Shown: positions 3,762 through 34,371 of the stretch, piece by piece
Layout: every line of letters starts with the position of its first letter
Position numbering within the stretch: position 1 is the stretch's first letter
IMG/VR virus record: IMGVR_UViG_3300046028_006182
Coordinates: 12,142 to 76,141 of that record
Direction: 5' to 3' (one strand)
Source: a virus
DNA: 64,000 nt
Notes under the pieces: model-generated
Database searches by the model: none
Seen by the model: only the letters and a program-made list of their open reading frames with translations
Told to the model about the DNA's origin: nothing
Program-made: the position numbers and the translations under genes

Positions 3762-5045
3762 ATGAAAAGATTACTCTCTTTGATGCTGGCTATATCCCTA
3801 GCGATTACCCTGCAAGCTTTTACTATAACTAACCACAGCAGCCTAACCAGCAGCATGGCAAGTGGGACTCTTATACCTGGTGAGTTTTACCAAATCTCAG
3901 ATAGGAACTCGGTTACATTGCAAGCTATCTCTACTAAGGATGTAAGTAACACTGGCCCGGCCCAGTTCTTTGTAGCGGATTACCAAGGAGTAGGTAACTA
4001 CTACCCCGGCCTAGGAACACAGCTTGGCCAGTGGGAGCCTACTATCAGTGCTAGCTTGGGTAGTATATGTATTTATAATGGGCTACATTGGCGAAATAGC
4101 TCAGGTACATCTAGTAATACTCCACCCCCAAGTGACCCTACTAATTGGTACTCGCTTCCAAAACAAACTAGCAATGGGTATAAGCTAGAGATAAACACTA
4201 TAACTCTTGACTACCCCGGCTTAGATAGCATCCTAGTTAGGCAGGATAACAGGGGTAACTACGTGGAGAAACCCTACTATGAGTACGAATTTATACTTGA
4301 TAACCCCATAGACCAATTCCAGTGGGGTAATGACTCAGTTTATAATAACACAGTAAAGCAAGGAGCTATATACTGTTTGAATAACCAGAGGAATGTATTT
4401 AACAACAAAGCTCTATCGGGGGGTTTAATTAATGCGGAACTTAACCAAGGCTATATCTCTAACAATACAACCTCTGATGAGGGCATCCTTGACTTTTTTA
4501 ATAACACGTACTTTGTGTATGCTAATACCTCTGAGCAGGGTGGTAATATCATTGCTAGAGATAACTCTGGTTTTATTAGTCTTAACGTAGTTAGGAGCTT
4601 TAACTCCGAGATGGAAATCTCGGGAAACTCAGGTAAGATTGACGCTAACCTACTTTTCCAAGGGCACATGGCGGCAGAGAATAACGGAGATACTGCTAGG
4701 ATAGCGGGTATTACCATGTTCCATGGCTCATCCGTGAATATCAACAACAACAAAGGAGTTTGTGGTGCATGGGTACTGACAATTGGTGCGACTGTACTAG
4801 CGGATAACAATGAGGGTACTCTTCGATGGCTAACTCTTAGTAACACCTCTACCCTTGATGTACAGGGTAATAAGGGCACAGTAGAGAGGCTAAAGCTAGA
4901 TGGTTTTGGTACTCTACATATCTACAAAGAAAAGCCATTCACTGCCCACTACCTAGAGGTAGTACTAAAAGATGGCCAAGACTTTACAGTACTGCCAATA
5001 ACTTCCCAGTACTATGAGTTCTACAAACCCTTTAACCTTAAGTAA
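3762..5045 (+). CDS. Signal-peptide beta-helix protein with CBM-like insert
   Basis: Hydrophobic N-terminus ending LQA; Asn-rich ~22 aa repeats; YNGLHW...PPPSDPTNW. Confidence 0.5.
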   Translation: MKRLLSLMLAISLAITLQAFTITNHSSLTSSMASGTLIPGEFYQISDRNSVTLQAISTKDVSNTGPAQFFVADYQGVGNYYPGLGTQLGQWEPTISASLGSICIYNGLHWRNSSGTSSNTPPPSDPTNWYSLPKQTSNGYKLEINTITLDYPGLDSILVRQDNRGNYVEKPYYEYEFILDNPIDQFQWGNDSVYNNTVKQGAIYCLNNQRNVFNNKALSGGLINAELNQGYISNNTTSDEGILDFFNNTYFVYANTSEQGGNIIARDNSGFISLNVVRSFNSEMEISGNSGKIDANLLFQGHMAAENNGDTARIAGITMFHGSSVNINNNKGVCGAWVLTIGATVLADNNEGTLRWLTLSNTSTLDVQGNKGTVERLKLDGFGTLHIYKEKPFTAHYLEVVLKDGQDFTVLPITSQYYEFYKPFNLK

Positions 5046-5076
5046 TTTATTAATAATACTTTAAAACCCCATCACA

Positions 5077-5430
5077 ATGGAAAACACACCCTTGGGTATT
5101 GAAACCCTTAAAAAAGCTCTAGGCTTTATGCTAGGGCTAGGTACTGAGCTGGCCTCTGCTTTAGAGGATGGTAAAGTATCAATGGCAGAAGGCTTAGGCT
5201 TTATCGATAACCTATTTGCAATACCAGGTCTAGTTAAGGACCGTAAGCAGCTAGTAGATGAGCTTAAAAATCTTTCGGATGACGAGAGGCAAGAGCTATT
5301 CACCTATGCTGCCCAAGAGTTTGACCTAGCTAATGACGAAGTTGAGTCAGTAGTTGAACAAGCTCTAGCAACTGCCCAGTCAATCCTGGAGTTAGCTATT
5401 TCTATCAAGGACTTGAAAAACAAGTCGTAA
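5077..5430 (+). CDS. Hypothetical helical protein
   Basis: 117 aa ORF with AAAACCCCATCACAATG leader. Confidence 0.6.
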   Translation: MENTPLGIETLKKALGFMLGLGTELASALEDGKVSMAEGLGFIDNLFAIPGLVKDRKQLVDELKNLSDDERQELFTYAAQEFDLANDEVESVVEQALATAQSILELAISIKDLKNKS

Positions 5431-5442
5431 AACCCAGTACCC

Positions 5443-5946
5443 ATGAAAATTAAACCAACATACCTAGCTTTGGGTGAAAAAGCAACCATTTTTACGGATA
5501 GCAGCATGAAGCTAAAAGTAGTGAAAGGCCAGCCGGGTGTTATCTACGGCAAAGCCTCTAAGAAAGTAGCCAATGCTTTACGAGCAGGCCACTTAGTAGA
5601 GGTGAACGAGGAGGAATACCAAGCCCAAACCGAAGCCATGCAGCTAGCAGTAGCTGAGTCGATAGCCCTAGCCGGTAAGCAAGGCTCTAAACTAAGTAAC
5701 AAGAGCATGGCTACTTTGAGGCAGGCTGAGGAAGAAGCCGAAGACGAAGACGAGGAGGAAGAGGAAGACGACGACGCATCAGGTGCCGGCGATGAGGGTT
5801 ACTCAGAGGCTCAGCTAAATGCCATGACCAAAGATGAGATAGTTAAGCTCTTGGTTGATGAGTATGATGTGGAAAAGGATGATATCAAAGGCCTTAACAA
5901 GAAAGAGCTTGTAGACCGAGTTCTTGAAGAACAAAGCGAGGCATAA
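5443..5946 (+). CDS. Acidic-linker protein with C-terminal Rho-N/HeH-like domain
   Basis: LNAMTKDEIVKL...LNKKELVDRVL after an E/D tract. Confidence 0.55.
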   Translation: MKIKPTYLALGEKATIFTDSSMKLKVVKGQPGVIYGKASKKVANALRAGHLVEVNEEEYQAQTEAMQLAVAESIALAGKQGSKLSNKSMATLRQAEEEAEDEDEEEEEDDDASGAGDEGYSEAQLNAMTKDEIVKLLVDEYDVEKDDIKGLNKKELVDRVLEEQSEA

Positions 5947-5949
5947 GAC

Positions 5950-6717
5950 ATGGCAACTCCTATAGCTAGGTTTAGCTTTAGCAATAACTATCTGGTAGTG
6001 GCATTCAGTGATACCTCACTGAATAGCCCTACCAGTTGGCTATGGGACCTTGGGGACGGTTCAGCTTCAGTTATCACCCAAAATCTATCCCACACCTATA
6101 CTACCCCGGGTATATATCGAGTAGTACTACAGGCTACGAACTCAGACGGTAGCGACTCCTACACATTTGACGTAGTAGTAAGTGATGTTAATATAGTACC
6201 CTTTACAATAGCTCAGCTAGTGGCAATGGGTATACCATCGGGTATAACAATACCCCCGGACTACTTAAAAGCACAAGTAGCTAAATGGCAAACCCTACTA
6301 GGAGCCCCAAATTCAATAAATGTTCCTGCCCCCGATACTTACGATGAGACCAAGTGGCCTGCTCTTGCTAATGTATTAATAGCTAACCTAGTTATCTATG
6401 ACTATATAATTAGCTTGACTAACAACTCAATCATATCAGGAAATACTAGCAGCGGCTCAACGAGCGCTATTTCAGAAGTAAAACAAATTAAGACTGGTCC
6501 AACAGAAGTTGAGTATTTCTCGAGTAACCAGGCCCTATCTGACTTCCTTAAAGCATCTGACTTTTTTACCATGTCTAAGGGTAATATCTGTGGTATAGCA
6601 GATGCGCTAGGGATATACTTGAATATGTGCCCAGCTAGGAAGAACTCTGTACCTTTCATAGTAATTAAAAAGGAAACGGCTATAGCCCAGTGGGTATGGC
6701 CATATAATTGCAGCTAA
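5950..6717 (+). CDS. PKD-domain head-tail adaptor
   Basis: FSDTS..PTSWLWDLGDG...HTYTTPGIYRVVL PKD signature; IKTGPTEVEY adaptor-like motif; position. Confidence 0.7.
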   Translation: MATPIARFSFSNNYLVVAFSDTSLNSPTSWLWDLGDGSASVITQNLSHTYTTPGIYRVVLQATNSDGSDSYTFDVVVSDVNIVPFTIAQLVAMGIPSGITIPPDYLKAQVAKWQTLLGAPNSINVPAPDTYDETKWPALANVLIANLVIYDYIISLTNNSIISGNTSSGSTSAISEVKQIKTGPTEVEYFSSNQALSDFLKASDFFTMSKGNICGIADALGIYLNMCPARKNSVPFIVIKKETAIAQWVWPYNCS

Positions 6718-6718
6718 T

Positions 6719-7180
6719 ATGCAACAAAGCGACTGGACTAGGTATGAGAATGTAGTAAATAACTTTGCTATCTTACACCATAAGCAAGGCATTATCTGGG
6801 ATAGGTATCTCGGAGGAGTTAGTCTATACGGGGAGGAAGATGATGAAGCGTCCGCTAACCGAGAAACGATTACCCTTGAGGGGGGCCTAGTAGATTACAA
6901 TGTATTTAGAACTTGGCCTACATCCGTTCAAAAGGAAACCGGTAGCATAGATAACCAGAGCCAGGTTCTAATTTTGAATAAGGTATGGCTAAGCTCCCAG
7001 GGCTACTTGAATGCTAACTCTAACTTTGACTTTACCCCCGAGAGAGATTACTTCACGGTAGACGGTATAGAGTATACCTGTGAGGGCTTCACTTCCAGCT
7101 CCCAAACAAATACCAAATCCCTATTTATAAACTTGATACTCTCTAGGAAAGAGGTATCTACACCTGGACCAACTCTATAG
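6719..7180 (+). CDS. Putative head-closure protein
   Basis: Size and position; DYFTVDGIEY motif. Confidence 0.5.
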   Translation: MQQSDWTRYENVVNNFAILHHKQGIIWDRYLGGVSLYGEEDDEASANRETITLEGGLVDYNVFRTWPTSVQKETGSIDNQSQVLILNKVWLSSQGYLNANSNFDFTPERDYFTVDGIEYTCEGFTSSSQTNTKSLFINLILSRKEVSTPGPTL

Positions 7181-7182
7181 TA

Positions 7183-7698
7183 ATGAAAAGTAACGTAGTA
7201 CCCTACATAAGGTTCAAATTTTTTGGGGATTGGGTAGGGTATACTAATAAGATAAGAAATCTAAGTCCAGACCTATATGCCTCAATGCTCTATGGCCAGA
7301 GAAAAGCAGCAACTCGGCTAGCAGCAGTAGTAGTAGGGCATCTAAAAAATCAAGACATACCCGGGTGGGAGCCTAAGATGAACCCCTCTGCCTCCGGTGA
7401 TACTAGGACCCTGATTGACACGGGTACCTACCTAAACAACATACGAGCTTGGCGTGATAACTTTAGTTACTACGTAGGAGTTAAGAGGGGGATAAAAAGC
7501 TCATCGGGTGTAGAAGTAGCAAGGTATGCGATGATACACGAAGCAAAGTCTTATACAACTGGCGGCCCATACCGTCCTTTATGGGGCCCCTCTGTTGAGG
7601 AGATGGGTGGAGCAGAGGGTATGAGAGATATAGTTAAAGCCGTTATTATCAAGAAACTAGCTTTAAGAGGTTGGCGAGTTAAAAACTTTAATATATGA
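7183..7698 (+). CDS. Putative neck/tail completion protein
   Basis: LIDTGTYLNNI...YAMIHE...RPLWGP pattern. Confidence 0.6.
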   Translation: MKSNVVPYIRFKFFGDWVGYTNKIRNLSPDLYASMLYGQRKAATRLAAVVVGHLKNQDIPGWEPKMNPSASGDTRTLIDTGTYLNNIRAWRDNFSYYVGVKRGIKSSSGVEVARYAMIHEAKSYTTGGPYRPLWGPSVEEMGGAEGMRDIVKAVIIKKLALRGWRVKNFNI

Positions 7699-8654
7699 GT
7701 TCAGGTGTACCATTAACTAACATACTCCAAAGAATAGAGAGGAGCCTCTACATTGCCATCATTGGCGAGTTAGCAGAGAAAGGCTACTCGATTAACCCGG
7801 GCGAGGAACTCACAGTAACTCCTATATCCGCTACTAGCACCACTTACTTACTACCCGGTGACCTAAGAGAATACTTTAAACAAGGTTATCAGTTTGAGGT
7901 AGTGGCGACAGGGCCAAATCGGGGAGTACAAACTGTAACTATTGACTCTACTCTATCCAGTGGGAATACTGTAGTAACTATTGCCCTAGTACGTAACCCT
8001 ATCCTAACAAATGAGGTAATCTCATATCTAAAGTACCCAAATACACCTTTTGGAAAAACCGAGTACACCAATGACCTTGAGGCTATTAGCACCAATATGA
8101 AATTCTCGGTTGAGGTATTTAATAACTCGGATAGTGATACTAAGGGATTAATGAAAGTACCAAGGGTAGTAATAGTACCAAGGAGAAGGCTGCCAGGAAA
8201 CTTGGGAGCCTTCGGCGTATCTAATCTAACCCCAATATATGGAGCCCCTCCATCACCCTCTGTCCAGCCCCCCATCGTAAATTACCAAAAGTCTACTCCC
8301 CCAGCCAGGACGTTTGACTTAGAGTATGACATAGCTATAATAACTAATAAAAGCTATCAAAACCGTATAATAACTGAAATAATAGGGCTAGCTATACCCG
8401 TATTGGGGTATTTAGATGTGTATGATAGTGCAAGTACCCAAGAGAGGATTTGTATTGAGCAATTCGGTTATATAAATAGTGGCATGAGGGATAAGGGGGT
8501 AGTAGAGGAAGTTATCTCAATAAGGATATTAGACATCTTCCTAGTACCAGAGGCAGTAAGCACAACAATTATAAGCCCTCTACAACAGCTAGCTATAGAC
8601 ATATACTTAGATAACGATATCCCTAACCAGTTTAATCGAGTAATCATCGACTAG
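7695..8654 (+). CDS. Putative tail terminator
   Basis: Immediately upstream of the sheath gene. Confidence 0.4.
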   Translation: MSSGVPLTNILQRIERSLYIAIIGELAEKGYSINPGEELTVTPISATSTTYLLPGDLREYFKQGYQFEVVATGPNRGVQTVTIDSTLSSGNTVVTIALVRNPILTNEVISYLKYPNTPFGKTEYTNDLEAISTNMKFSVEVFNNSDSDTKGLMKVPRVVIVPRRRLPGNLGAFGVSNLTPIYGAPPSPSVQPPIVNYQKSTPPARTFDLEYDIAIITNKSYQNRIITEIIGLAIPVLGYLDVYDSASTQERICIEQFGYINSGMRDKGVVEEVISIRILDIFLVPEAVSTTIISPLQQLAIDIYLDNDIPNQFNRVIID

Positions 8655-8715
8655 CTATATACAATACCACTTAAACATTAATAAAAGAGAATAACCAAGA
8701 CGAAAAGCCTTTAAT

Positions 8716-10623
8716 ATGCCAACAGCACCTACAGTAAATATCTCCTTAGTAGATAGCTCGTTCCAAGCTCTGCAACCCCAAAGAGGCCTAAGCTTTGTAA
8801 TGGGTATAACCAAGAGGGGCCCAGTAAATGACCCCTCTACGATAATTACCTCATGGGCTCAGTTTACTGAGATATTTGGGGGGTATATAGGTAATAGCGA
8901 CTTCCCCCTGCTATGCAAAAGAGCTTTAGACCGGGGCGCGTTACTAAGGGTAAACCGGATAGTAAACTACACGGATATTACTGACCCGGCTACTATAACA
9001 GCCGACACCGCAGTATTGGATGCCGGGACTACTTTATCTTTTAGTGCTGCTCTAGTAACAAGCAACACCGTGAATTTAACTATTGACGGTATAGCGATTA
9101 CACAGGCATTTGCTACTGATAATGACACCACCTTTACTAACCTAATAGCTACTTTGAATGGTAACACTACCCTAGCAGCTAGCTATATATTTATCCCTAT
9201 CCCTGCTACTGGCTTAGGTAGTATAGAGGGGATAGTGATAGTTAATAAAGTACCATTGACGGCAGGAGCAAATGTAACTCTACACACTGTAACAGGAGGA
9301 GCAAGCCAAGCCACTATAACAGTTGCTAGCTTAACTGACGGCTCAATATTTGCTAATAGCTTGTATAATACTCCACTCTTTCAAATCACTGTTAAGAACC
9401 CCGGGGAAGATGGTAACTACATTATCGTATCTATAAATACCGCGAGCAACGGTAGCTCTGACTACTTTAACCTAGCAGTTACCCACTTGCTAGAGCCCAA
9501 TCTTAATGAGCTATACGAAAACTTGATAGTAGACACTGTTAGTGGTACAGGAGCTCCCGCAAATGCTTCCACTTACCTTTCAGCTCTATCTACCTCTAAG
9601 CTAATAGACTATACCTACCTAGATGCTGATACCGTTACTGGGCAACCAAGGCCATTAGATTGTGCTCTATATGCCTTTGATGGTGGTGATGGCTCTGCGG
9701 TAACGGTAACTGACTATGTTGGGGACTCAGCTGCAAAAACTGGCTTCCATGCTTTTGATGCTTACTCGGATGCCTACCAAATATGTGTACCTGAGCTATC
9801 AGATGATACCCTACACGTTGGGGGTGCTGCTTATGCTGCGGCAAGAAAAGACCTTCTTTACCTAGCCCACTTAGACAACAGCTTCATCACCCGTGCTGAC
9901 TTAACCACTGAGCGGGATGCCACTAATATTGACACCCGGTATGCGATGTTCTTTGCCGGGGGCTTGAAAGTAAGTGACCCTCAAACAGGGGTTACCAAGT
10001 CAATTAGTGAAATGGGCGATGTAATCGGCTTAATTGCTTATAGTGATACCGTAACAGGGGGCGGAGAATGGATGTCCTTTGCTGGAAAGAACCGGGGTTT
10101 CATCCCTAATGCTTTAGGCGTAGTAAATAACTTTGGAGGTACCGCTCAATACGCCGACATTGATTTGCTAGCTAAAAGGCAAATCAATATGGTAGTAAAC
10201 TCGGGAGGTACTATATATCTTAACAGTAACTTCACAGCACAGCTTGCAAGCTCTCGAGCCTCTTTTGCTGATACCATGCGATTTGTATTCCGATTAAGTA
10301 AGGAGCTAGGCTCTATACTTCAAAGGTATCTGCAAGAGCCTTTAGACCTACAGCTAACTAACCAGATATACGATGACGCTAAGGTACTCCTAGATGACTA
10401 CCTATCATCCAACAAAAGAGCATTGCTACGATACCTTTGGGTGGGTGGGCAAAACTCTAAGAGCTTAGCTGACTTATTTGCTACAACCAGCAATACCCAG
10501 CCTAATTGGGAAAACGGGATATACGAGATTACCTTGCAGATTAGTAAAACCCCTGCCTTGCAAGTTATAAATTGTACTATCAAGTTAACCCCATCTACTG
10601 CAACCGTAACCGTAAACTTCTAA
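8716..10623 (+). CDS. Tail sheath protein
   Basis: GITKRGPVNDP..ITSWAQFTEIFG, KNPGEDGN, W.SFAGKNRG motifs; 635 aa. Confidence 0.92.
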   Translation: MPTAPTVNISLVDSSFQALQPQRGLSFVMGITKRGPVNDPSTIITSWAQFTEIFGGYIGNSDFPLLCKRALDRGALLRVNRIVNYTDITDPATITADTAVLDAGTTLSFSAALVTSNTVNLTIDGIAITQAFATDNDTTFTNLIATLNGNTTLAASYIFIPIPATGLGSIEGIVIVNKVPLTAGANVTLHTVTGGASQATITVASLTDGSIFANSLYNTPLFQITVKNPGEDGNYIIVSINTASNGSSDYFNLAVTHLLEPNLNELYENLIVDTVSGTGAPANASTYLSALSTSKLIDYTYLDADTVTGQPRPLDCALYAFDGGDGSAVTVTDYVGDSAAKTGFHAFDAYSDAYQICVPELSDDTLHVGGAAYAAARKDLLYLAHLDNSFITRADLTTERDATNIDTRYAMFFAGGLKVSDPQTGVTKSISEMGDVIGLIAYSDTVTGGGEWMSFAGKNRGFIPNALGVVNNFGGTAQYADIDLLAKRQINMVVNSGGTIYLNSNFTAQLASSRASFADTMRFVFRLSKELGSILQRYLQEPLDLQLTNQIYDDAKVLLDDYLSSNKRALLRYLWVGGQNSKSLADLFATTSNTQPNWENGIYEITLQISKTPALQVINCTIKLTPSTATVTVNF

Positions 10624-28073: not shown

Positions 28074-28502
28074 ATGCCCAAGGATAAAGACAAAACCAAG
28101 AAAAGACGGAAGAGGCCCAGCAGTACACCAGAGAATTTCGATTGGTTTAAACCAGTAGTAACTGCGGATAAACTAGGGGGAGAAGAAGACCCTTGCTTTG
28201 GTAAGCTATACAGCTTGGTACATAAAGCTTGCGGTAGTTGTGGGGATAGCGAACTCTGTGCTATAGTATACTCCCACCAACTCCATAAAGCCCGTGCCGA
28301 GCAAGAAGAAAAGGTAGAGTTTAAGGACTTAGCTGAGGGTGCTTATAAAGCTGAGGGTGACAAGAAGATAAGAGCTCTTGCTAAAAAACTCCTGATAGCT
28401 GGTAAGTCCTCTAAAGTTATTAAAGCTAGGCTACTAACTAAGTATGGAGTAGTAGAAGCGGACGCTATAAAGATTATTAATAAACTTAAAGCCAAAATGT
28501 AA
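28074..28502 (+). CDS. Cys4 zinc-binding basic protein
   Basis: DPCFGK...CGSCGDSELC. Confidence 0.55.
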   Translation: MPKDKDKTKKRRKRPSSTPENFDWFKPVVTADKLGGEEDPCFGKLYSLVHKACGSCGDSELCAIVYSHQLHKARAEQEEKVEFKDLAEGAYKAEGDKKIRALAKKLLIAGKSSKVIKARLLTKYGVVEADAIKIINKLKAKM

Positions 28503-28506
28503 GGCG

Positions 28507-29382
28507 ATGAAAAAGAGTATAAAAGACGTATCCCAATACCAGGTACCATTTACTTGGGGAACAGAGCTTCATAGCAAAGAGCTAGCTATAATGTTTAATA
28601 AGCAGCGGGAGGTAATCGAGCTATTTTCTAGCATTGAGAGATTACCAGCTTTGCCTCTAGACATCGGTAAAGCCGATAGCATGAGCTTTCTAAGAGACCT
28701 GCTATTTAGGGCTAACATCGAGCTATCAGAGGCTTACACTGAGTACCTAAAGCTATTAACCATGCTTTCCTCTAATGTAGATAGAGAAGACATGATACCT
28801 ACGCTATATGCTTTTAATGAGGAGCTAGCTGACATAGCTCACTTCCTTATTGAGGCCATGATATACTCCAATATAGAGGTAGACGATTTAGAGAATTACC
28901 TAGATATCTACCTTGAGAGAAATGAGTTCAAGGGTATGTCTAGTAAAGGTAACCCGTTAGCAACATCACTTAGGGTAGCCCAGTACTTAAACAACACCAT
29001 TGGTTATCCCCAAATTTTGAAGTTGCCGGCTTTCAATATCCTAGCAGGCTATGAGGAAGAAAGCATTTGCTTGAAGGGTGGTTCTCGTATTACCCCCGAT
29101 AGGCTATTCATATTCCAGGACAGTGCTTGGAGGATAACCCATGAGTTAATGAGCTGTGCTAACCACTTACGGAGCTCTAACTGGTCACTATCCGGTACTC
29201 AAACGGATTTTGCTTTATACCACGAGAAATTACTTTCCGTTTGGATAGAGTTTTGCAGACTGCTAGTGGCCTTGGATATTGACGTTGTTAACATCTATAG
29301 CCTCTACTACCGAAAAAATATTATAAACCAAGAGAGAGCTAAATCTCTGATATTAAAAACAACCCATGGGAAGAAAAGTTAA
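28507..29382 (+). CDS. All-alpha NTP pyrophosphohydrolase (MazG/dimeric dUTPase-like)
   Basis: ELSEA...EELADIAHFLIE; C-terminal YYRKNIINQER. Confidence 0.7.
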   Translation: MKKSIKDVSQYQVPFTWGTELHSKELAIMFNKQREVIELFSSIERLPALPLDIGKADSMSFLRDLLFRANIELSEAYTEYLKLLTMLSSNVDREDMIPTLYAFNEELADIAHFLIEAMIYSNIEVDDLENYLDIYLERNEFKGMSSKGNPLATSLRVAQYLNNTIGYPQILKLPAFNILAGYEEESICLKGGSRITPDRLFIFQDSAWRITHELMSCANHLRSSNWSLSGTQTDFALYHEKLLSVWIEFCRLLVALDIDVVNIYSLYYRKNIINQERAKSLILKTTHGKKS

Positions 29383-30271
29383 AAAGGTTAAGCCTTTAAA
29401 AGTAAAAGAGTTTAACTTCAAGGATGCCCAATTAGCTTGGGCGGGCCTTAATGAGTATTTGGCTACCCAGGAGAAAGAGGTTTATGCTAGAGGCGGCGGT
29501 AGGTATGGACCCGCTCTAAGAAGCTACGACAATATCGTATATATTAGGGATGGGAGGATAGACCCCAACTTTGACTTCTCCAGTATGCTTGGATATACCG
29601 GCCAGAAGTGGACTTCTCTAGTAAAAAACTATGTTGACCTTAATTATCTTGACTTAGTTAAGTCCGAAATACTACGGCGGGAGAAAACTAAGTCTAGGAG
29701 CTATAACTTTAGCTTCCATTTCAGCAATAAGTACCACTCTGGGAAAGATTGCTTGATAAGTATATCTTTTATCCGTAGGCTAGATAAAGATAGGCCCATG
29801 CTAATCTTTACAACTAGGGCTACAGAGGTAACGAAGAGGCTAATCTTTGACCTGCTACTTATCCAAAGGATAGGAGAGTATGTATATGGTGAAGGTACTA
29901 GGTTTGAGGTTATGTTATTCCTACCGATGATGTATATCTCGGCAGAGCACTTTACTTACTACCATGCCTATAAACCAATACCTAGGGTATTGGGTATGCC
30001 AAAGAACAAAGGGAAGCTGGGCAAGTTCAGTGCTAGATGTTGGGAAATATACCGCAGGTTTAAAAAGATTGACGTTACCAAGGTAAAGTTTAAGTCGGAC
30101 CAGAAGGCAATAGCTCAACTGCAAAGGGTTGTAGCCGGTAAGTCTTTAGGTAAACCCCTAATTGCTGAGCAGCTTAGGTTAGGTACTATCATTGAGTTCC
30201 CAGAGGATTGCATTTCCCCTAAGGAGCGTAAGAGGTTTGTAAGATTAAGAAATCAAAAGGCTAAGGAATGA
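29366..30271 (+). CDS. Divergent thymidylate-synthase-fold protein 1
   Basis: KDCLISISF...TTRATEVTKRLIFD aligns with TS PC...RSxD...N. Confidence 0.55.
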   Translation: MGRKVKKVKPLKVKEFNFKDAQLAWAGLNEYLATQEKEVYARGGGRYGPALRSYDNIVYIRDGRIDPNFDFSSMLGYTGQKWTSLVKNYVDLNYLDLVKSEILRREKTKSRSYNFSFHFSNKYHSGKDCLISISFIRRLDKDRPMLIFTTRATEVTKRLIFDLLLIQRIGEYVYGEGTRFEVMLFLPMMYISAEHFTYYHAYKPIPRVLGMPKNKGKLGKFSARCWEIYRRFKKIDVTKVKFKSDQKAIAQLQRVVAGKSLGKPLIAEQLRLGTIIEFPEDCISPKERKRFVRLRNQKAKE

Positions 30272-31059
30272 GCACATACTACAATCTAACTACCGCAATA
30301 AACCTAACCAGGGATAAGCTATTCAGCATGGGTACAATTACCCCCACTGAGAAGTGGCAAGGTAAAGAAGTTAATCGGGATATGCTAGAGCTCCTGGATG
30401 TTCACGTGAAGGTATTAGAGGTTCCAAATACTTCCCTAGAGTTAGCTGAGTTAATACAGCCCAATTTACCCTGGGCAGATATACACTTCGTTGAAAGGGT
30501 TGGAGGTAAACCCCTTAATCCGGGTGAGTCATACAAACAATGGCCTTTCTATGGACAGGACAGTGCCATGAGAAGCGTATCTCAGAAATTCTCACATACT
30601 TACATGGAAAGGTATTGGCCTAAGAAAGCTGGCATATCACCCGGTACACTAGAGTCCTCCTTTCTTAATAAGGGCATCAGGTATAGCTATGGGGATTTGC
30701 TTGATGTAATAGAGCTTCTAAAGAAGGAGCCTTCTACTAGGCAGGCATACCTTCCTATTTGGTTTCCAGAAGACACGGGGGTAACTTTCGGTGGTAGAGT
30801 TCCTTGTACACTGGGTTACCACTTTATAATTAGGGATGGGTTAATCAATGTAACTTACTACCTCCGCTCATGCGATGTTTTGAGGCACATGCAAGATGAT
30901 ATTTATTTAACTTGCTTACTCTTAAATTATGTGAAAGATGCACTATCAGAGGTAATGCCCGAACTAAAGAACGGGTACTACTCTATGCACATAGTATCTC
31001 TACACTGCTTTGCTATTGAGAAGAATAAGTTAAAAGCCCGACTAAAAAGCCCTGCATGA
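30268..31059 (+). CDS. Thymidylate synthase/pyrimidine (hydroxy)methylase homologue 2
   Basis: TRQA, RVPCTLGYHF, YLRSCDVLRHMQDD, SLHCF. Confidence 0.85.
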   Translation: MSTYYNLTTAINLTRDKLFSMGTITPTEKWQGKEVNRDMLELLDVHVKVLEVPNTSLELAELIQPNLPWADIHFVERVGGKPLNPGESYKQWPFYGQDSAMRSVSQKFSHTYMERYWPKKAGISPGTLESSFLNKGIRYSYGDLLDVIELLKKEPSTRQAYLPIWFPEDTGVTFGGRVPCTLGYHFIIRDGLINVTYYLRSCDVLRHMQDDIYLTCLLLNYVKDALSEVMPELKNGYYSMHIVSLHCFAIEKNKLKARLKSPA

Positions 31060-31472
31060 AAGAAAGAATATCCCGATTAGACTACTTTAAGGAGATGGTA
31101 CAAGTCGTCTCAAAAAGAGCTACTTGTGGCAGAGCTTGCCAGGGAGCTATAATTGTTAAAGAAAATAGGGTAATCTCTACCGGTTATAATGGGCCCGTAT
31201 CAAGGAGTAAACATTGTGAAGAGCTTGGCTGCAATGTAAATGAGTCCTGCAAAGTAAGCGTACACGCTGAAGCTAACTCAATATACTTTGCTGCCAAGCA
31301 TGGCATAGCCACGGAAGGAGCCTCATTATACTGTAGTACTGCCCCTTGCCACCTATGCGCTCAGGCTATTATCCAAGCTGGTATCACAGAGGTATTCTAC
31401 ATCAATGACTATAGGGATAGAGCAGGTATAGAAATACTGGAGTCTAGTAAAGTAGAAGTATCTAAATTATAA
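31056..31472 (+). CDS. dCMP deaminase
   Basis: RATC, TGYNG, HAEAN, PCHLC. Confidence 0.93.
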   Translation: MKERISRLDYFKEMVQVVSKRATCGRACQGAIIVKENRVISTGYNGPVSRSKHCEELGCNVNESCKVSVHAEANSIYFAAKHGIATEGASLYCSTAPCHLCAQAIIQAGITEVFYINDYRDRAGIEILESSKVEVSKL

Positions 31473-31493
31473 AGTACAACTCGTACCAACAAT

Positions 31494-33680
31494 ATGGAAG
31501 CTAGGTATAAGATTTGCAAGAACCTTGCACAAGTAAAAAAGCTAATAGCCTGCTGCAAAGAAACGGGATATGCGTGCTTAGATTTCGAGACAACCTCTGG
31601 CAAATTCTACGAGATAACCGAGCACCCCACAGTATTAGGCATATCTTATCAGCCCGGCTCAGCGGTAGTAGTACCCCTTTACCATGATGAGTCCCCGTTC
31701 AAACATAACTACAGAAAGGTATTAAAGCTAATAGGTAGGGAGGTAATATCAAATCCCGATATTGTTAAGATTGGGCAAAACTTTAAATTTGAGCACTCCT
31801 GGTTTCTAAGGTTTAATATAGTACCAAGAGGTAGGATATTAGATACAATGTTAGCTAAGTACTTACTGGATGAGGAAAGGCCGCATGACTTGAAGAGTAT
31901 GGTTTCTAGGTTTATACCTGAGTACTCTGACTATGAGAGCGAGATACAAGCCCTTGCTCGGCAGCATGGCTGGGCAAAGATACCTATGGAGCCACTAGCT
32001 AAATACAATGCCCTAGATTGCATACTCACTTTTAAGCTAATGCTATTCTTTGAGCCGAAGTTAATGGAGCTTAATATGTATTCGCTATTTAGAAACCTCT
32101 TGATGCAACTTAGCAGGACTCTTGCTGAGTCTGAGTATAGGGGTATTCTAGTGGATAAGCAATACTTAGAGGGTATAACTGCTGACACTCGTAAGAAGCT
32201 AGATGACCTTTACCAAGAGAAAGTAATTGGGCATAAGGTTATTAAAAGGTATATCCGAAAATCTACAAAGGTAAAGGTAAAAGCTTTAATTAAAAGCGTA
32301 AAGCAGGAGATAAGCGATTTACAAGAGTCGGGCAAAGGGATGAGTGACCGGGTAATAGTTAGTAGGTTAACTAAAATACAAAACTACTCTAGGGGCATAT
32401 TCACTACCAAAAAGGAGTTAAAGATGGTTGAGCCTATTAATCTAAACAGCTCACACCAACTAATAGACTTTCTTTTTACCTCGAAGCATGGTCTACAGCT
32501 ACCAGTAGTTAGATTTACAGTTGACAAGAAAACCAAGCAGCAGAAAACTACCCCATCAACGGATGAGACCAGCTTGCTAGAGCTACGAGAGCTAGATGAA
32601 ACGGGTTTTATTGATACCCTATTACTACACCGCTCAGAGCAAAAGCTATACAGTACCTATATGGTGGGTATATTAGAGAAGATATCCTCTAAAAATAGAA
32701 TACACACTAAGTTCAATATCCATGGTACTGTTACTGGCAGGCTATCTTCAACCAACCCAAATCTACAAAACATTCCCCGAAGTACTACATCATCCCTTAT
32801 CAAGAAGATGTTTATCCCACCACCGGGCTACCTAATACTTGAGGTCGATTACTCCCAAGCAGAGCTAAGGATAGTAGCTGAGCTTGCAAAGGAGAAAACC
32901 ATGATTAAGTGGTTCAATGAGGGTAGAAACATACACGTAGCGGTAGCTTGCAAAGCTAATGGTCGTGAAGATGACTATGATGAGATTTATAAGATAAGCA
33001 AAGACCCAAGCCACCCCGACTACAATTACTGGACTATCCGTAAGAAAAGGGCTAAGACTATTAACTTTGGTATCTTGTATGGGCAGGGTGCTAAGAAGTT
33101 AGCAGAAACTCTAAACTCTAAACTAGAGGAGGGTGAAAAGAAAACATCAGAGCAAGCGGCAGCTAAGTTCAAAAAGGAGTGGCTAGAAACTTTCCCAAGG
33201 ATTGATAAGTGGATTAAAGGGCAATTCAGATTTGCCTATGATAATGGATATGTCCCCACAGTATTTGGTAGGAAAAGGAGATTACCTGATATTTACCTTG
33301 AGAACTCTCACAAAGGTAAATTCCTAGAGGCTCAAAGACAATCAGTAAATGCCCCGATACAGGGTGCATCATCTGACTTTACCCTATTCAGCTCTATTAT
33401 CGTGAGGGAATATATACTTAAAGGCTTACTCCCTAGGGATATGTTGCAATGCTATACAGTACATGACTCAATTGGTTATTACATAAGACCCGAGGATTTA
33501 CACAGAGTAGTACCGATACTTGACGAGATATGCTCTAATCCCCAGACCGGGAAATACTTTCACTTCCAAGCTAAGTACGTTAAGATGAAGGTATCATTTG
33601 AGGTGGGCAGAAACTGGGGAAGTTTACAAGATTACAACCCAAGCATAAACTATACAGATTTTTTAAACCAACAAAACTAG
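31494..33680 (+). CDS. polA: DNA polymerase family A (3'-5' exonuclease + polymerase)
   Basis: DFET, TGRLSS..PNLQNIP, DYSQAELR, AKTINFGILYG, VHDS. Confidence 0.97.
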   Translation: MEARYKICKNLAQVKKLIACCKETGYACLDFETTSGKFYEITEHPTVLGISYQPGSAVVVPLYHDESPFKHNYRKVLKLIGREVISNPDIVKIGQNFKFEHSWFLRFNIVPRGRILDTMLAKYLLDEERPHDLKSMVSRFIPEYSDYESEIQALARQHGWAKIPMEPLAKYNALDCILTFKLMLFFEPKLMELNMYSLFRNLLMQLSRTLAESEYRGILVDKQYLEGITADTRKKLDDLYQEKVIGHKVIKRYIRKSTKVKVKALIKSVKQEISDLQESGKGMSDRVIVSRLTKIQNYSRGIFTTKKELKMVEPINLNSSHQLIDFLFTSKHGLQLPVVRFTVDKKTKQQKTTPSTDETSLLELRELDETGFIDTLLLHRSEQKLYSTYMVGILEKISSKNRIHTKFNIHGTVTGRLSSTNPNLQNIPRSTTSSLIKKMFIPPPGYLILEVDYSQAELRIVAELAKEKTMIKWFNEGRNIHVAVACKANGREDDYDEIYKISKDPSHPDYNYWTIRKKRAKTINFGILYGQGAKKLAETLNSKLEEGEKKTSEQAAAKFKKEWLETFPRIDKWIKGQFRFAYDNGYVPTVFGRKRRLPDIYLENSHKGKFLEAQRQSVNAPIQGASSDFTLFSSIIVREYILKGLLPRDMLQCYTVHDSIGYYIRPEDLHRVVPILDEICSNPQTGKYFHFQAKYVKMKVSFEVGRNWGSLQDYNPSINYTDFLNQQN

Positions 33681-33684
33681 GCGT

Positions 33685-34371
33685 ATGAGAATTGGATTAT
33701 CCGGACCAAGTGGCTCTGGCAAGACGACGATAGCTAAGATATTAGCAGAGTCATTAGGTATACCCTTTATCCCGACATCGGTAGAGAATGTATTAAGTGA
33801 GTGGCAAAAAGAATACCTAAGTCAGAAGTACGGTTATGAAGCTAAGGGCCATAAGAATGTTATCCAGCTATCGGGAGCTAATCCTGAATTTGCAAAAGAG
33901 TTCCAGCTCATGGTTAAATCGGGTAGAGCAGCTCTATTAGCTGAGCATGAAAGCTACATAGTAGACCGTACCGCTATTGACAACATGGCTTATTACTTAT
34001 CAGAGGGTGCTGCCTATGACACCTATGAGCAGTCCGTCCTATTCCTTATGGATGTTAGGGATAATCTAAAAGCCCTAGATGTTGTATTTGTTATAAAAGC
34101 AGTACAGCCTAGTAGAGAGGTAGAAGATAACAACTCTCGTATACCCAACTGGATATATCAGAAAGGGGTAGAGGGTAACTTCATTACAGCGAAGAATTTA
34201 ATTTACGACCTTGAGTCTTTAGATGAGTTGCAAGAGCTTCCCTTAGTACAGACTATAGGCTACTGGGATTTAAGAACTCGCCAGCAGGATATGCTAACTC
34301 GTATAGCCAAGAGGGTAGAGATGAAAGCTGACTTCATCAAGAAAGTAAAAATGAGAACCGATGAGTACTAA
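33685..34371 (+). CDS. P-loop nucleotide monophosphate kinase
   Basis: GPSGSGKTT; VDRTAID..AY. Confidence 0.75.
   Translation: MRIGLSGPSGSGKTTIAKILAESLGIPFIPTSVENVLSEWQKEYLSQKYGYEAKGHKNVIQLSGANPEFAKEFQLMVKSGRAALLAEHESYIVDRTAIDNMAYYLSEGAAYDTYEQSVLFLMDVRDNLKALDVVFVIKAVQPSREVEDNNSRIPNWIYQKGVEGNFITAKNLIYDLESLDELQELPLVQTIGYWDLRTRQQDMLTRIAKRVEMKADFIKKVKMRTDEY

What the first reader, a model, noticed from the sequence alone, without database searches (positions are those of the whole stretch)
28507..34371. Candidate undescribed pyrimidine-modification pathway: tandem TS-fold genes, both with Asp at the specificity position
Seen: one tightly packed run of MazG/dUTPase-like hydrolase, TS-fold 1, TS-fold 2, dCMP deaminase, PolA and dNMP kinase. 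Counting from the Arg of E. coli ThyA R166-S-C-D...N177, TS2 reads RSCDVLRHMQDD and TS1 reads RATEVTKRLIFD. Both have Asp at 177, both keep a candidate catalytic Cys (VPC, KDC), and the conserved Gly is replaced by His or Arg. Established: Asn177 selects dUMP whereas Asp selects dCMP (T4 dCMP hydroxymethylase). TS enzymes are obligate dimers, and hydrolase + synthase + kinase + dedicated polymerase is the logic of T4 hmC and SPO1 hmU substitution. Inference, three alternatives: (a) a heterodimeric or two-step dCMP-modifying enzyme giving a modified C in DNA; (b) modification of dCMP then deamination to a modified U replacing T; (c) a non-canonical dTMP route via 5-methyl-dCMP. I saw no glycosyltransferase in the window.
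Basis: partly seen in the sequence, partly recalled or inferred. Interest (0 to 1): 0.85.

Follow-up and report, generated by a model that had tools for sequence, protein, structure and literature searches.

The report
Paired cytosine-type thymidylate-synthase-fold phage enzymes
A complete 76-kb lake-water phage carries, next to its DNA polymerase, a known type of gene cassette for altering cytosine nucleotides before DNA synthesis, plus a second, never-characterised enzyme of the same fold that also occurs in cultured phages such as mycobacteriophage Muddy.

Summary
Six co-oriented, overlapping genes encode a dimeric-dUTPase-family NTP pyrophosphatase, TS1, TS2, a dCMP deaminase, PolA and a P-loop kinase.

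- **TS2** is a Pfam thymidylate-synthase homologue. It has Asp at E. coli position 177, Arg at 143 and His at 173, and it lacks the C-terminal lid.
- **TS1** has no Pfam or PDB sequence match. Its AlphaFold model (pLDDT 94) matches only TS-superfamily structures (Z 9.2-13.9; next unrelated 4.9).
- Across 212 TS1 relatives, the Cys146, Arg166, acid-169 and Asp177 equivalents are 98-100% conserved.

The cassette of Asp177 TS, deaminase, NTP pyrophosphatase and PolA is already published for cytosine-modified metaviromes, including the route from 5-methyl-dC nucleotides to thymidine nucleotides.

- 77 of 79 informative IMG/VR TS1 loci have TS2 directly downstream.
- TS2 also occurs alone in jumbo-phage contigs, so TS1 depends on TS2 and not the reverse.
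- TS1 relatives sit in the same slot in Muddy (gp47), PMBT14, Yersinia P744 and Clostridium perfringens phages.

The product is unknown. Two facts argue against complete cytosine replacement: a lineage-wide C5-methyltransferase gene and extreme GATC avoidance. This scan has already noted the same pair in other genomes.

The parts
28507..29382 (+). All-alpha NTP pyrophosphatase of the dimeric dUTPase/dCTPase family (291 aa). Proposed to supply the dNMP substrate and exclude the canonical dNTP.
   Evidence: PF08761 scores 27.7 bits against a cut-off of 22.9; phrog_12184 gives E 1.9e-13. AF2 pLDDT is 90. VIA matches: 1w2y (C. jejuni dUTPase) Z 12.8, 5myd Z 10.6, 2yay Z 8.5, and the next chain 6.7. 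E72, E75, E106 and D109 are invariant in 34 homologues. It lies upstream of TS1 in 66 of 80 IMG/VR loci.
29366..30271 (+). TS1: divergent thymidylate-synthase-fold protein (301 aa) of an uncharacterised family (phrog_34294 / phrog_13667). Cys129, Arg151, Glu154 and Asp162 sit at the positions of E. coli C146, R166, D169 and N177.
   Evidence: No Pfam or PDB sequence hit. AF2 pLDDT 94. TS-superfamily chains score Z 9.2-13.9 and the next chain 4.9. Alignment register. Conservation over 212 sequences. Family size: 399 clusters at 90% identity and 194 representatives at 50% identity.
30268..31059 (+). TS2: thymidylate synthase homologue (263 aa) with Asp at position 177, Arg at 143, Thr at 147 and His at 173, and no C-terminal lid. 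Predicted dCMP C5 one-carbon transferase.
   Evidence: PF00303 28.1 bits; phrog_160 E 1.8e-24. Residue mapping. More than 4000 homologue clusters. 40-45% identical to the annotated TS genes of Muddy, PMBT14, Serratia phage Serbin, Yersinia P744 and Brevundimonas phages.
31056..31472 (+). dCMP deaminase (138 aa) of the classical zinc-dependent ComEB / T4 Cd type.
   Evidence: PF00383 E 1.6e-18; phrog_174 E 1.9e-42. The HAE and PCxxC motifs are visible in the translation. Closest solved relatives: S. mutans dCMP deaminase 2hvv at 1.3e-28, cyanophage S-TIM5 4p9c, and T4 Cd 1vq2. PBCV-1 7fh4 scores only 2e-10.
31494..33680 (+). Family A DNA polymerase with 3'-5' exonuclease (728 aa).
   Evidence: PF00476 E 3.5e-80; PF01612 E 6.4e-19. 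Lies downstream of the TS genes in 79 of 80 TS1 loci.
33685..34371 (+). P-loop (d)NMP kinase, thymidylate-kinase-like (228 aa).
   Evidence: Walker A motif GPSGSGKT. phrog_2107 'thymidylate kinase' E 8.3e-11; AAA_28/AAA_18. A Tmk-like kinase opens the same cassette in Muddy, PMBT14 and P744.

Best explanation
This is a replication-module cassette that remodels the pyrimidine deoxynucleotide pool before DNA synthesis.

Proposed pathway:
1. The dimeric-dUTPase-family pyrophosphatase turns dCTP (and/or dUTP) into the monophosphate.
2. TS2, a self-sufficient TS homologue retargeted to cytosine (Asp177), adds a one-carbon group to C5 of dCMP. Hydroxymethyl is somewhat more likely than methyl.
3. 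The Tmk-like kinase and host NDP kinase raise the product to the triphosphate.
4. The adjacent PolA incorporates it.
5. The classical dCMP deaminase diverts part of the (modified) dCMP pool towards thymidine-type nucleotides, as Cd does in T4.

TS1 is a second, catalytically competent TS-fold enzyme for a cytosine nucleotide. It entered the cassette together with the pyrophosphatase and depends on TS2. It most likely either acts on TS2's product or makes a different C5 adduct at the nucleotide level. Its product is unknown.

Shown here: gene content, folds, residue states, conservation and co-occurrence. Inferred: every substrate, every product, and whether virion DNA is modified at all.
For: **Gene identities and tight coupling:**

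**TS2**
- Asp at position 177 and the catalytic Cys are confirmed by HMMER and MAFFT alignments to L. casei and E. coli TS, T4 gp42 and Xp12 gp59.
- Asp211, Cys180, Arg200, Asp203, Arg177 and His207 are invariant in 40 homologues. They are equally conserved whether or not TS1 is present.
- Hydroxymethyl is favoured for three reasons: TS2 ends 17 residues after the His207 equivalent, whereas E. coli has 57 and the Xp12 methylase keeps the TS-like tail; position 143 is not hydrophobic; and the complete genome has no DHFR.

**TS1**
- TS fold.
- K81, W82, Y89, C129, R151 and D162 are 99-100% conserved, E154 98% and R158 95%, over 212 sequences.

**Co-occurrence**
- 77 of 80 TS1 loci have TS2 immediately downstream, 66 have the hydrolase upstream and 79 have PolA downstream.
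- Only about 14 of 80 TS2 loci have TS1.
- 0 of 28 solo-TS2 jumbo-phage records match the TS1 profile.

**Not ordinary dTMP supply:** relatives add ThyX to the pair (L001, L004 and 3-4 of 25 long contigs).

**Published context**
- Asp177 TS, deaminase, PRA-PH/MazG and PolA co-localise on cytosine-modified contigs (PMC8670742; 10.1101/2024.12.05.627091).
- The residue rules for positions 177, 143 and 169 come from PMC13326640.
Against: - No chemical data exist for this phage or for any cultured carrier of the cassette. Literature searches found none.
- The complete genome encodes a DNA C5-cytosine methyltransferase-like protein. So do 16 of 17 complete relatives. That enzyme would have no substrate if every C were 5-substituted.
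- GATC is almost absent (15 observed, 221 expected). At least one restriction pressure is therefore met by site avoidance rather than by a protective base.
- TS2 has Arg at position 143, not the Asp/Glu of proven hydroxymethylases. Five of seven deaminase-linked Asp177 TS homologues tested in 10.1101/2024.12.05.627091 made 5-methyl-dCMP. Methyl therefore remains fully possible.
- The hydrolase's closest structures are dUTPases, and its base specificity is unknown.
- The TS1-to-TS2 sequence relationship is not significant by profile comparison (E 0.19 and 0.015). The residue equivalences rest on fold plus register.
Confidence: 0.55

Rival explanations
1. Xp12-type economy. TS2 methylates dCMP to 5-methyl-dCMP, and the deaminase converts 5-methyl-dC nucleotides to thymidine nucleotides. 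The cassette is then mainly a dUMP-independent thymidylate route. It would yield either 5mC-substituted DNA or canonical DNA. TS1 would be an accessory to this route.
For: - The deaminase is fused in operon order to TS2.
- The genome has no ThyA with Asn177, no ThyX and only one PF00303 hit.
- The kinase is thymidylate-kinase-like.
- The published route runs from 5mdCMP, via 5mdCTP deamination, to dTTP. Five of seven in-cis Asp177 TS homologues made 5mdCMP (10.1101/2024.12.05.627091).
- A C5-methyltransferase gene and GATC avoidance fit DNA that still contains ordinary C, or only 5mC.
Against: - PF00383 deaminase is absent from 15 of 25 long relatives, and from 10 of 17 complete ones, that keep hydrolase-TS1-TS2-PolA.
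- The deaminase here is nearest to classical monophosphate dCMP deaminases (2hvv, 1.3e-28). It is far from the PBCV-1 type that resembles the published 5mC-selective enzyme (7fh4, 2e-10) and is only 27% identical to Xp12 gp58.
- TS2 lacks the C-terminal segment that Xp12 gp59 and ThyA keep. From established TS enzymology, that segment is needed for hydride transfer.
- No DHFR is present, whereas Xp12 has one beside its TS.
- Some relatives carry ThyX as well.
- This model gives TS1 no role.
Confidence: 0.2
2. TS1 and TS2 form one obligate heterodimeric enzyme. Each subunit would complete the other's active site, as the two subunits of a TS homodimer do.
For: - The tandem is translationally coupled: the ATGA overlap at 30268-30271 holds the TS1 stop and the TS2 start.
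- The tandem is kept in 77 of 80 loci and across hosts from Mycobacterium to Clostridium.
- TS enzymes are obligate dimers with shared active sites (established knowledge).
- TS2 keeps only one of the two partner-donated arginines (R158-Q159 against E. coli R126-R127).
Against: - TS2-type genes stand alone in most sampled loci and in complete jumbo-phage records without any TS1 match.
- Paired and solo TS2 show no difference at catalytic positions.
- TS1 keeps its own full Cys/Arg/acid/Asp set. It is therefore not a degenerate helper subunit.
- No TS1 fusion to another recognised domain was found among the longer TS1-family proteins checked or in the search of proteins longer than 527 aa.
Confidence: 0.12
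3. TS1 is not an enzyme. It would be a nucleotide-binding regulator, a scaffold of a dNTP-synthesising complex, or an inhibitor of a host enzyme or defence that senses pyrimidine nucleotides.
For: - No activity is known for the family.
- Two of the four TS phosphate-binding arginines have poor counterparts: position 42 is variable, and R105 is Arg in only 64% of sequences.
- T4 is known to assemble its nucleotide enzymes into a complex (established knowledge).
Against: The nucleophile Cys (100%), the W80- and Y94-like residues K81-W82 and Y89 (99-100%), R151 (100%), E154 (98%) and D162 (100%) are conserved. This is the pattern expected of a working C5-chemistry active site, not of a binding module.
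Confidence: 0.06
4. This is ordinary phage thymidylate synthesis. TS2 would be a divergent ThyA acting on dUMP produced by the dUTPase-like hydrolase and the dCMP deaminase.
For: - Database annotations of the homologues read 'thymidylate synthase'.
- The hydrolase resembles dUTPases structurally.
- Deaminase, dUTPase, TS and Tmk make up the textbook dTTP route.
Against: - Asp at position 177 is invariant in the family. This substitution switches TS from dUMP to dCMP (Liu & Santi 1992 and Hardy & Nalivaika 1992, as cited in PMC8670742).
- His147 is replaced, Gly173 is replaced, and the C-terminal lid is missing.
- ThyX coexists with the pair in some relatives.
Confidence: 0.04

Closest known systems
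Metavirome neighbourhood 'Asp177 TS homologue + in-cis dCMP-family deaminase + PRA-PH/MazG pyrophosphatase + PolA' (MetaGPA; PMC8670742 and bioRxiv 10.1101/2024.12.05.627091)
   Same: The gene set and order around the polymerase are the same, and the TS has Asp at position 177. In those studies the neighbourhood is associated with contigs whose cytosines are modified.
   Different: Those papers do not describe a second TS-fold gene between the pyrophosphatase and the TS. The hydrolase here belongs to the dimeric-dUTPase family rather than PRA-PH. The deaminase here is of the classical dCMP-deaminase type. Whether any tested contig carried a TS1 homologue is unknown.
Bacteriophage T4 hydroxymethylcytosine pathway (gp56 dCTPase/dUTPase, gp42 dCMP hydroxymethylase, Cd dCMP deaminase, gp1 dNMP kinase)
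   Same: The logic is the same: all-alpha NTP pyrophosphatase, Asp-type TS homologue, dCMP deaminase, dNMP kinase and a phage polymerase. TS1's best Foldseek match is T4 dCH.
   Different: - T4 has one TS-fold hydroxymethylase with Asp at position 143. Here there are two TS-fold genes, with Arg (TS2) and Gly (TS1) at that position.
- No glucosyltransferase was found.
- The polymerase is family A, not family B.
- A C5-methyltransferase gene is present.
Xanthomonas phage Xp12 / PaMx74 5-methylcytosine module (gp59 dCMP methyltransferase, gp58 deaminase, DHFR)
   Same: An Asp177 TS homologue is directly followed by a dCMP-family deaminase near PolA.
   Different: - Xp12 gp59 is only about 24% identical to TS2. 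It keeps the ThyA-like C-terminus and Gly173, and it has Asn at position 143.
- Xp12 has a DHFR and a HAD hydrolase but no TS1-like gene.
Flavin-dependent 5-hydroxy-dCMP synthases (RB69 gp48, DLP3 gp80, HY126 AfhB; PDB 9iqc/9iqu; PMC13326640)
   Same: This is the best structural match to the TS1 model (9iqc: Z 13.9, rmsd 4.0, 185 residues aligned). It is a minimal TS fold acting on dCMP, with Asp at position 177.
   Different: The diagnostic D169N substitution is absent: TS1 has Glu (98% conserved) and TS2 has Asp. Sequence identity is about 12%. No arabinosyl- or glycosyltransferase genes were found.
Unannotated genes in cultured phages: Muddy gp47, PMBT14 gp48, Yersinia vB_YenM_P744 ORF027 ('pyrimidine hmase synthase'), C. 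perfringens phage C2/CPD4 hypothetical protein
   Same: They occupy the same slot between the NTP pyrophosphatase and the Asp177 TS, upstream of the deaminase and PolA. They hit the broad TS1 HMM at 24.9-136 bits. All keep the Cys, Arg and Asp of the Cys...R-x-x-E-x7-D motif, and all except Muddy gp47 also keep the Glu.
   Different: They are very divergent from the window's TS1: the narrow-profile hhalign E-values range from 1.5e-4 to 9e-9. Muddy gp47 lacks the Glu154 equivalent. None has been studied.

Membership tests
Thymidylate synthase / pyrimidine hydroxymethylase superfamily (TS fold) | Alpha/beta TS fold | tested here: met
   TS1: the AF2 model (pLDDT 94) matches seven TS-superfamily chains at Z 9.2-13.9, and the next unrelated chain scores Z 4.9. 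TS2: PF00303 scores above the gathering threshold.
Thymidylate synthase / pyrimidine hydroxymethylase superfamily (TS fold) | Sequence membership in Pfam PF00303 | tested here: met
   TS2 scores 28.1 bits against a cut-off of 24.3. TS1 does NOT meet this: it has no Pfam hit at E <= 0.1, and neither the single sequence nor the 48-sequence profile gives a PDB sequence hit. TS1 belongs to the superfamily by fold only.
Thymidylate synthase / pyrimidine hydroxymethylase superfamily (TS fold) | Catalytic Cys146, Arg166 and the acid at position 169 | tested here: met
   TS2 has C180, R200 and D203, all invariant. TS1 has C129 (100%), R151 (100%) and E154 (98%; Glu instead of Asp). The TS1 register comes from a non-significant profile alignment supported by the fold.
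Canonical ThyA (dUMP to dTMP) | Asn177, His147, Gly173 and a C-terminal lid closing over the folate | tested here: not met
   TS2 has Asp211, Thr181 and His207, and only 17 residues follow the His207 equivalent (E. coli has 57). TS1 has Asp162, Leu130 and Arg158.
T4-type dCMP hydroxymethylase | Asp at 177 together with an acidic residue at 143 (rule stated in PMC13326640) | tested here: not met
   Asp177 is present in both proteins. Position 143 is Arg in TS2 (invariant in its family) and Gly in TS1 (96%), whereas T4 gp42 has Asp. The same activity by other means is not excluded.
Xp12-type dCMP methyltransferase | Asp177 TS that retains ThyA-like hydride-transfer architecture, with folate recycling (DHFR) | tested here: inconclusive
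   Asp177 is met. TS2 lacks the C-terminal tail that Xp12 gp59 has, and the complete genome has no DHFR. The host DHFR could serve instead, and the activity was not tested.
5-hydroxy-dCMP synthase (RB69 gp48 / AfhB) | D169N substitution (diagnostic in PMC13326640) | tested here: not met
   TS2 has Asp203 and TS1 has Glu154. The best structural match of TS1 is nevertheless 9iqc.
Published cytosine-modification neighbourhood (MetaGPA) | Asp177 TS within 3 kb of a PF00383 deaminase, an all-alpha NTP pyrophosphatase and PolA | tested here: met
   All four lie within 5.2 kb on one strand.
Published cytosine-modification neighbourhood (MetaGPA) | Virion DNA actually carries modified cytosine | not testable with these tools
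   Only assembled contigs of a lake-water metagenome hold the sequence. No nucleoside or signal-level data are available.
Dimeric dUTPase / all-alpha NTP pyrophosphatase | All-alpha fold with conserved acidic metal-binding residues | tested here: met
   PF08761 scores above its cut-off. VIA matches are 1w2y Z 12.8, 5myd Z 10.6 and 2yay Z 8.5. E72, E75, E106 and D109 are invariant. Base specificity (dUTP or dCTP) was not testable.
dCMP deaminase (PF00383) | HAE and PCxxC zinc motifs, and family score | tested here: met
   'VHAE' and 'PCHLC' are in the translation. PF00383 gives E 1.6e-18 and 2hvv gives 1.3e-28.

The most novel reading that the evidence does not exclude
TS1 is a new catalytic branch of the thymidylate-synthase superfamily that works after TS2. 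It would add its cysteine to C6 of TS2's product (5-hydroxymethyl-dCMP, for example) and regenerate the exocyclic-methylene intermediate. It would then trap that intermediate with something other than water or hydride. The result would be a C5-substituted deoxycytidine nucleotide, and hence a DNA base, that has not been described. This base would occur in a phage group spanning freshwater, gut and soil viromes and cultured phages, including the therapeutic mycobacteriophage Muddy.
Probability: 0.2. Interest if true: 0.85.

Novelty: new variant of a known kind. Interest (0 to 1): 0.6.

Why it matters
Pre-replicative cytosine modification by TS homologues is a main way phages evade restriction and CRISPR. 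Its enzymes have also become sequencing tools. The published residue rules (positions 177, 143 and 169) do not predict a product for either TS here.

One of the two proteins belongs to a large family:
- 399 clusters at 90% identity and 496 confirmed IMG/VR stretches;
- no Pfam model and no experimental data;
- an intact-looking active site.

The same slot is occupied in cultured phages (Muddy, PMBT14, Yersinia P744 and C. perfringens phages), so the question can be answered with routine LC-MS and expression assays. A positive result would add a new reaction to a classic enzyme fold. It would also show whether phages used therapeutically carry non-canonical DNA. A negative result would show that Asp177 cassettes do not always mean modified DNA.

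Tried and rejected
**TS1 sequence and fusion searches**
- Sequence searches of TS1 against Pfam, PDB chains (single sequence and 48-sequence profile) and BLASTP against TS2 gave nothing significant.
- hhalign of the TS1 profile against the TS2 profile and against a mixed TS alignment gave E 0.19 and 0.015. I used these only for register.
- The search for fused forms gave nothing. No TS1 relative longer than 527 aa was found. The C-terminal tail printed for the longest relative is low-complexity, and none of the six longer relatives matched another cassette protein.

**Literature and expression**
- Searches for DNA-modification data on Muddy, PMBT14, P744, Serbinvirus and C. perfringens phages found none.
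- 'Pyrimidine hmase' appears in no held paper.
- Iyer et al. 2013 (PMC3763556) is not held.
- No RNA holder was listed for the stretch, so nothing can be said about expression.

**Structure searches**
- Foldseek on the hydrolase model returned only helical-bundle noise. VIA-wide resolved it.

**Hypermodification genes in the own genome**
- The searches found no GT1, GT2 or carbamoyltransferase.
- The Tet_JBP and T4 beta-GT searches also found nothing, but these two rang in no control genome, so they are weak negatives.

**Ideas rejected or left untested**
- I considered the C5-methyltransferase as part of the cassette. It is absent from five cultured or complete carriers of the cassette, so it is specific to this phage lineage.
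- I compared paired and solo TS2 sequences for lost partner-dependent residues. There were no differences at catalytic positions.
- A heterodimer model (AlphaFold-multimer) could not be run with the tools offered.

Full report
**Setting**

The window is bases 12142-76141 of a complete 76,141-bp IMG/VR virus record with 59-bp direct terminal repeats. The sequence is held by lake-water metagenomes.

The finding lies in the replication module. Upstream of it are:
- a DnaB-like helicase and a primase;
- a UvsW-like helicase.

Downstream of it are:
- a gp32-like SSB and a RecA/UvsX-like recombinase;
- a flap endonuclease;
- Mre11/Rad50-like proteins and a PD-(D/E)XK nuclease.

**Observation**

The six ORFs are as described and tightly packed. 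The hydrolase and TS1 overlap by 17 nt. TS1/TS2 and TS2/deaminase each overlap by 4 nt.

*Hydrolase*
- It passes the Pfam dUTPase_2 threshold.
- It folds with pLDDT 90 into an all-alpha protein.
- Its only strong structural matches are dimeric dUTPases: 1w2y Z 12.8, 5myd Z 10.6 and 2yay Z 8.5. The next chain scores 6.7.
- Four acidic residues are invariant.
- It is therefore a dUTPase/dCTPase-type all-alpha NTP pyrophosphatase. Its base preference cannot be read from sequence.

*TS2*
- It passes PF00303.
- Alignments to L. casei and E. coli TS, T4 gp42 and Xp12 gp59 place Cys180 on C146, R200-S-C-D203 on R166-D169, and Asp211 on N177.
- Arg177 falls on L143, Thr181 on H147, and His207 on G173.
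- Only 17 residues follow the His207 equivalent.
- These states are invariant in 40 homologues.

*TS1*
- It has no Pfam hit and no PDB sequence hit, even as a 48-sequence profile.
- With an alignment of 48 homologues it folds at pLDDT 94 and pTM 0.88.
- An all-against-all structural search returns seven chains at Z 9.2-13.9, all from the TS superfamily: the flavin-dependent dCMP hydroxylase 9iqc, MilA, three ThyA structures, T4 dCH and a DHFR-TS. It then drops to Z 4.9.
- Foldseek ranks T4 dCH, the HY126 dCMP hydroxylase and MilA first.
- Profile-profile alignment is not significant but gives one consistent register: G126=L143, C129=C146, R151=R166, E154=D169, R158=G173 and D162=N177.
- Over 212 full-length family members, C129, R151, D162, K81, W82 and Y89 are 99-100% conserved, E154 98%, G126 96% and R158 95%.

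**What is already known**

- Asp at position 177 switches TS from dUMP to dCMP. TS homologues with Asp177 are enriched on cytosine-modified metavirome contigs, where they co-occur with PRA-PH-type pyrophosphatases and dCMP-family deaminases (PMC8670742).
- A follow-up preprint shows that 70% of deaminases on modified contigs lie within 3 kb of a TS. The other neighbours are PRA-PH and PolA.
- In that preprint, five of seven tested TS homologues made 5-methyl-dCMP. The deaminase characterised in detail, mSCD-B5, converted 5-methyl-dCTP to dTTP (10.1101/2024.12.05.627091).
- Residue rules come from PMC13326640. A hydrophobic residue at 143 favours methyl, and Asp or Glu favours hydroxymethyl. 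D169N marks the flavin-dependent 5-hydroxy-dCMP synthases.

Neither TS here fits the product rules. TS2 has Arg143 and Asp169. TS1 has Gly143 and Glu169.

**Comparative evidence on TS1**

*Family size*
- TS1 has 399 relatives (clusters at 90% identity). All are unnamed and none has a Pfam domain.
- There are 194 representatives at 50% identity.
- 496 IMG/VR stretches are confirmed relatives.
- The family corresponds to phrog_34294 and phrog_13667, both of 'unknown function'.

*Asymmetric dependence on TS2*
- In 80 IMG/VR TS1 loci, a TS2-type gene follows directly in 77. One further locus ends just after TS1. Two short contigs have an unrelated 170-191-aa ORF instead.
- The hydrolase precedes TS1 in 66 loci and PolA follows in 79.
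- Only about 14 of the 80 best TS2-type loci contain TS1. Most of the rest lie on 100-430-kb contigs behind a metallophosphoesterase gene.
- None of 28 such records matches the TS1 profile, and seven of these are at least 90% complete.
- TS2 sequences keep all catalytic residues whether paired or solo.
- TS2 therefore looks autonomous. TS1 looks like an add-on that is only useful where TS2 is present. This argues against an obligate heterodimer. It favours a second step or a second product.

*Deaminase and ThyX in relatives*
- The deaminase is optional. PF00383 is found in 10 of 25 long TS1 contigs and in 7 of 17 complete ones.
- ThyX is added in a few relatives.
- The conserved core is therefore not a thymidylate route.

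**Cultured phages**

The same order recurs in several cultured or complete phages: kinase, NTP pyrophosphatase, an unannotated protein of 250-300 aa, Asp177 TS, deaminase, PolA. It is seen in:
- mycobacteriophage Muddy (gp49-gp44);
- Pseudomonas phage PMBT14 (gp50-gp45);
- Yersinia phage vB_YenM_P744, where the protein is annotated 'pyrimidine hmase synthase';
- a complete Manatee Spring myovirus genome;
- in reduced form, Clostridium perfringens phages such as C2 and CPD4.

A broad TS1 HMM hits the unannotated protein in each of them:

| Phage protein | Bit score |
|---|---|
| C. perfringens phage C2 | 136 |
| Manatee Spring myovirus | 69 |
| Yersinia P744 ORF027 | 47 |
| PMBT14 gp48 | 40 |
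| Muddy gp47 | 25 |

The next-best hits are the TS2-type proteins themselves. The Cys...R-x-x-E-x7-D motif is visible in all except the Glu in Muddy gp47. Xp12 has no TS1. I found no published DNA-composition data for any of these phages.

**Mechanism proposed**

Shown:
- a pyrophosphatase, two TS-fold proteins with intact nucleophile and cytosine-type specificity residues, a classical dCMP deaminase, PolA and a Tmk-like kinase, all in one operon;
- TS1 depends on TS2 in its distribution.

Inferred, step by step:
1. The hydrolase makes dCMP (and/or dUMP).
2. TS2 transfers a one-carbon unit to C5 of dCMP.
3. The kinase and host NDK give the triphosphate.
4. PolA incorporates it.
5. The deaminase feeds the thymidine branch, as in T4. 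It is nearest to S. mutans ComEB-type, cyanophage S-TIM5 and T4 Cd enzymes.

I lean towards hydroxymethyl rather than methyl for TS2, for three reasons:
- it lacks the C-terminal lid that ThyA and the Xp12 methylase keep;
- position 143 is not hydrophobic;
- the complete genome has no DHFR.

This preference is weak.

TS1 keeps W80- and Y94-like residues, Cys, Arg and a conservative Glu at the folate-contacting position 169. It probably still performs C5 chemistry on a cytosine nucleotide. With Gly at 143, its cleft should be open to water or another nucleophile. Its substrate could be dCMP, TS2's product, or a ribo- or diphosphate form. The substrate and its product are unknown.

**Evidence that cuts the other way**

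- The part of the genome outside the window encodes a diverged but motif-complete DNA C5-cytosine methyltransferase. It scores PF00145 at E 1.3e-18 and has the motifs 'GHPDCG' and 'ENL'.
- The same family is present in 22 of 25 long TS1 contigs and in 16 of 17 complete ones. It is absent from five cultured or complete carriers of the cassette.
- A C5-methyltransferase is pointless on DNA whose cytosines are all 5-substituted. In this lineage, replacement may therefore be partial, or the pathway may serve nucleotide supply.
- GATC occurs 15 times against 221 expected. All other 4-bp palindromes lie at 0.66-1.10 of expectation. At least one restriction pressure is handled by site avoidance.

These facts keep the Xp12-like 'thymidylate through 5-methyl-dC' reading alive at about 0.2. 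They hold my confidence in the main model to 0.55.

**Verdict**

- The cassette is a known kind.
- The TS1 family is a real, widespread and untested branch of the TS fold.
- This scan has noted the same pair several times in other genomes (e1-6022914, e1-5923699, e1-3503987, e1-5350282).
- Cultured carriers make the question directly testable.

Noticed in passing
Own genome G000:C1:5079-6065 (+), upstream of the window (the window starts at G000 12142): A diverged DNA C5-cytosine methyltransferase-like gene (PF00145, E 1.3e-18; motifs 'GHPDCG', 'ENL' and 'RERARIQGIPD'). The same family is present in 22 of 25 long TS1-bearing IMG/VR contigs but in none of five cultured or complete cassette phages. 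This is odd for a phage thought to replace cytosine.
   Followed up: partly
Whole genome G000 (window 1-64000 included): GATC is almost absent: 15 sites against 221 expected from trinucleotide frequencies (O/E 0.07). The other fifteen 4-bp palindromes lie at 0.66-1.10. This points to a GATC-directed host restriction or Dam-dependent system that is met by site avoidance.
   Followed up: partly
L001 (MT121960.1) 4452-9551 and L002 (MT121964.1) 4974-7735: Human-gut relatives carry two TS1-family paralogues each. MT121960 also has a trimeric dUTPase, ThyX and a TS2-type gene in one run. That makes up to three TS-fold genes plus ThyX in one cassette.
   Followed up: partly
L013-L054 and others (IMG/VR contigs of 100-430 kb): A tight clade of TS2-type (Asp177, Arg143) genes stands alone in jumbo-phage-sized contigs. 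It lies directly downstream of a calcineurin-like metallophosphoesterase gene, with no TS1, deaminase or PolA nearby.
   Followed up: partly
L101 2559-3071 and L135 3331-3906: In two short IMG/VR contigs, the slot after TS1 holds an unrelated 170-191-aa ORF with no Pfam match instead of TS2.
   Followed up: partly
window 28074-28502 (+): A 142-aa ORF with a basic N-terminus and a Cys cluster (CFGK...CGSCGDSELC) sits between the UvsW-like helicase and the hydrolase. It has no significant Pfam or PHROG family.
   Followed up: no
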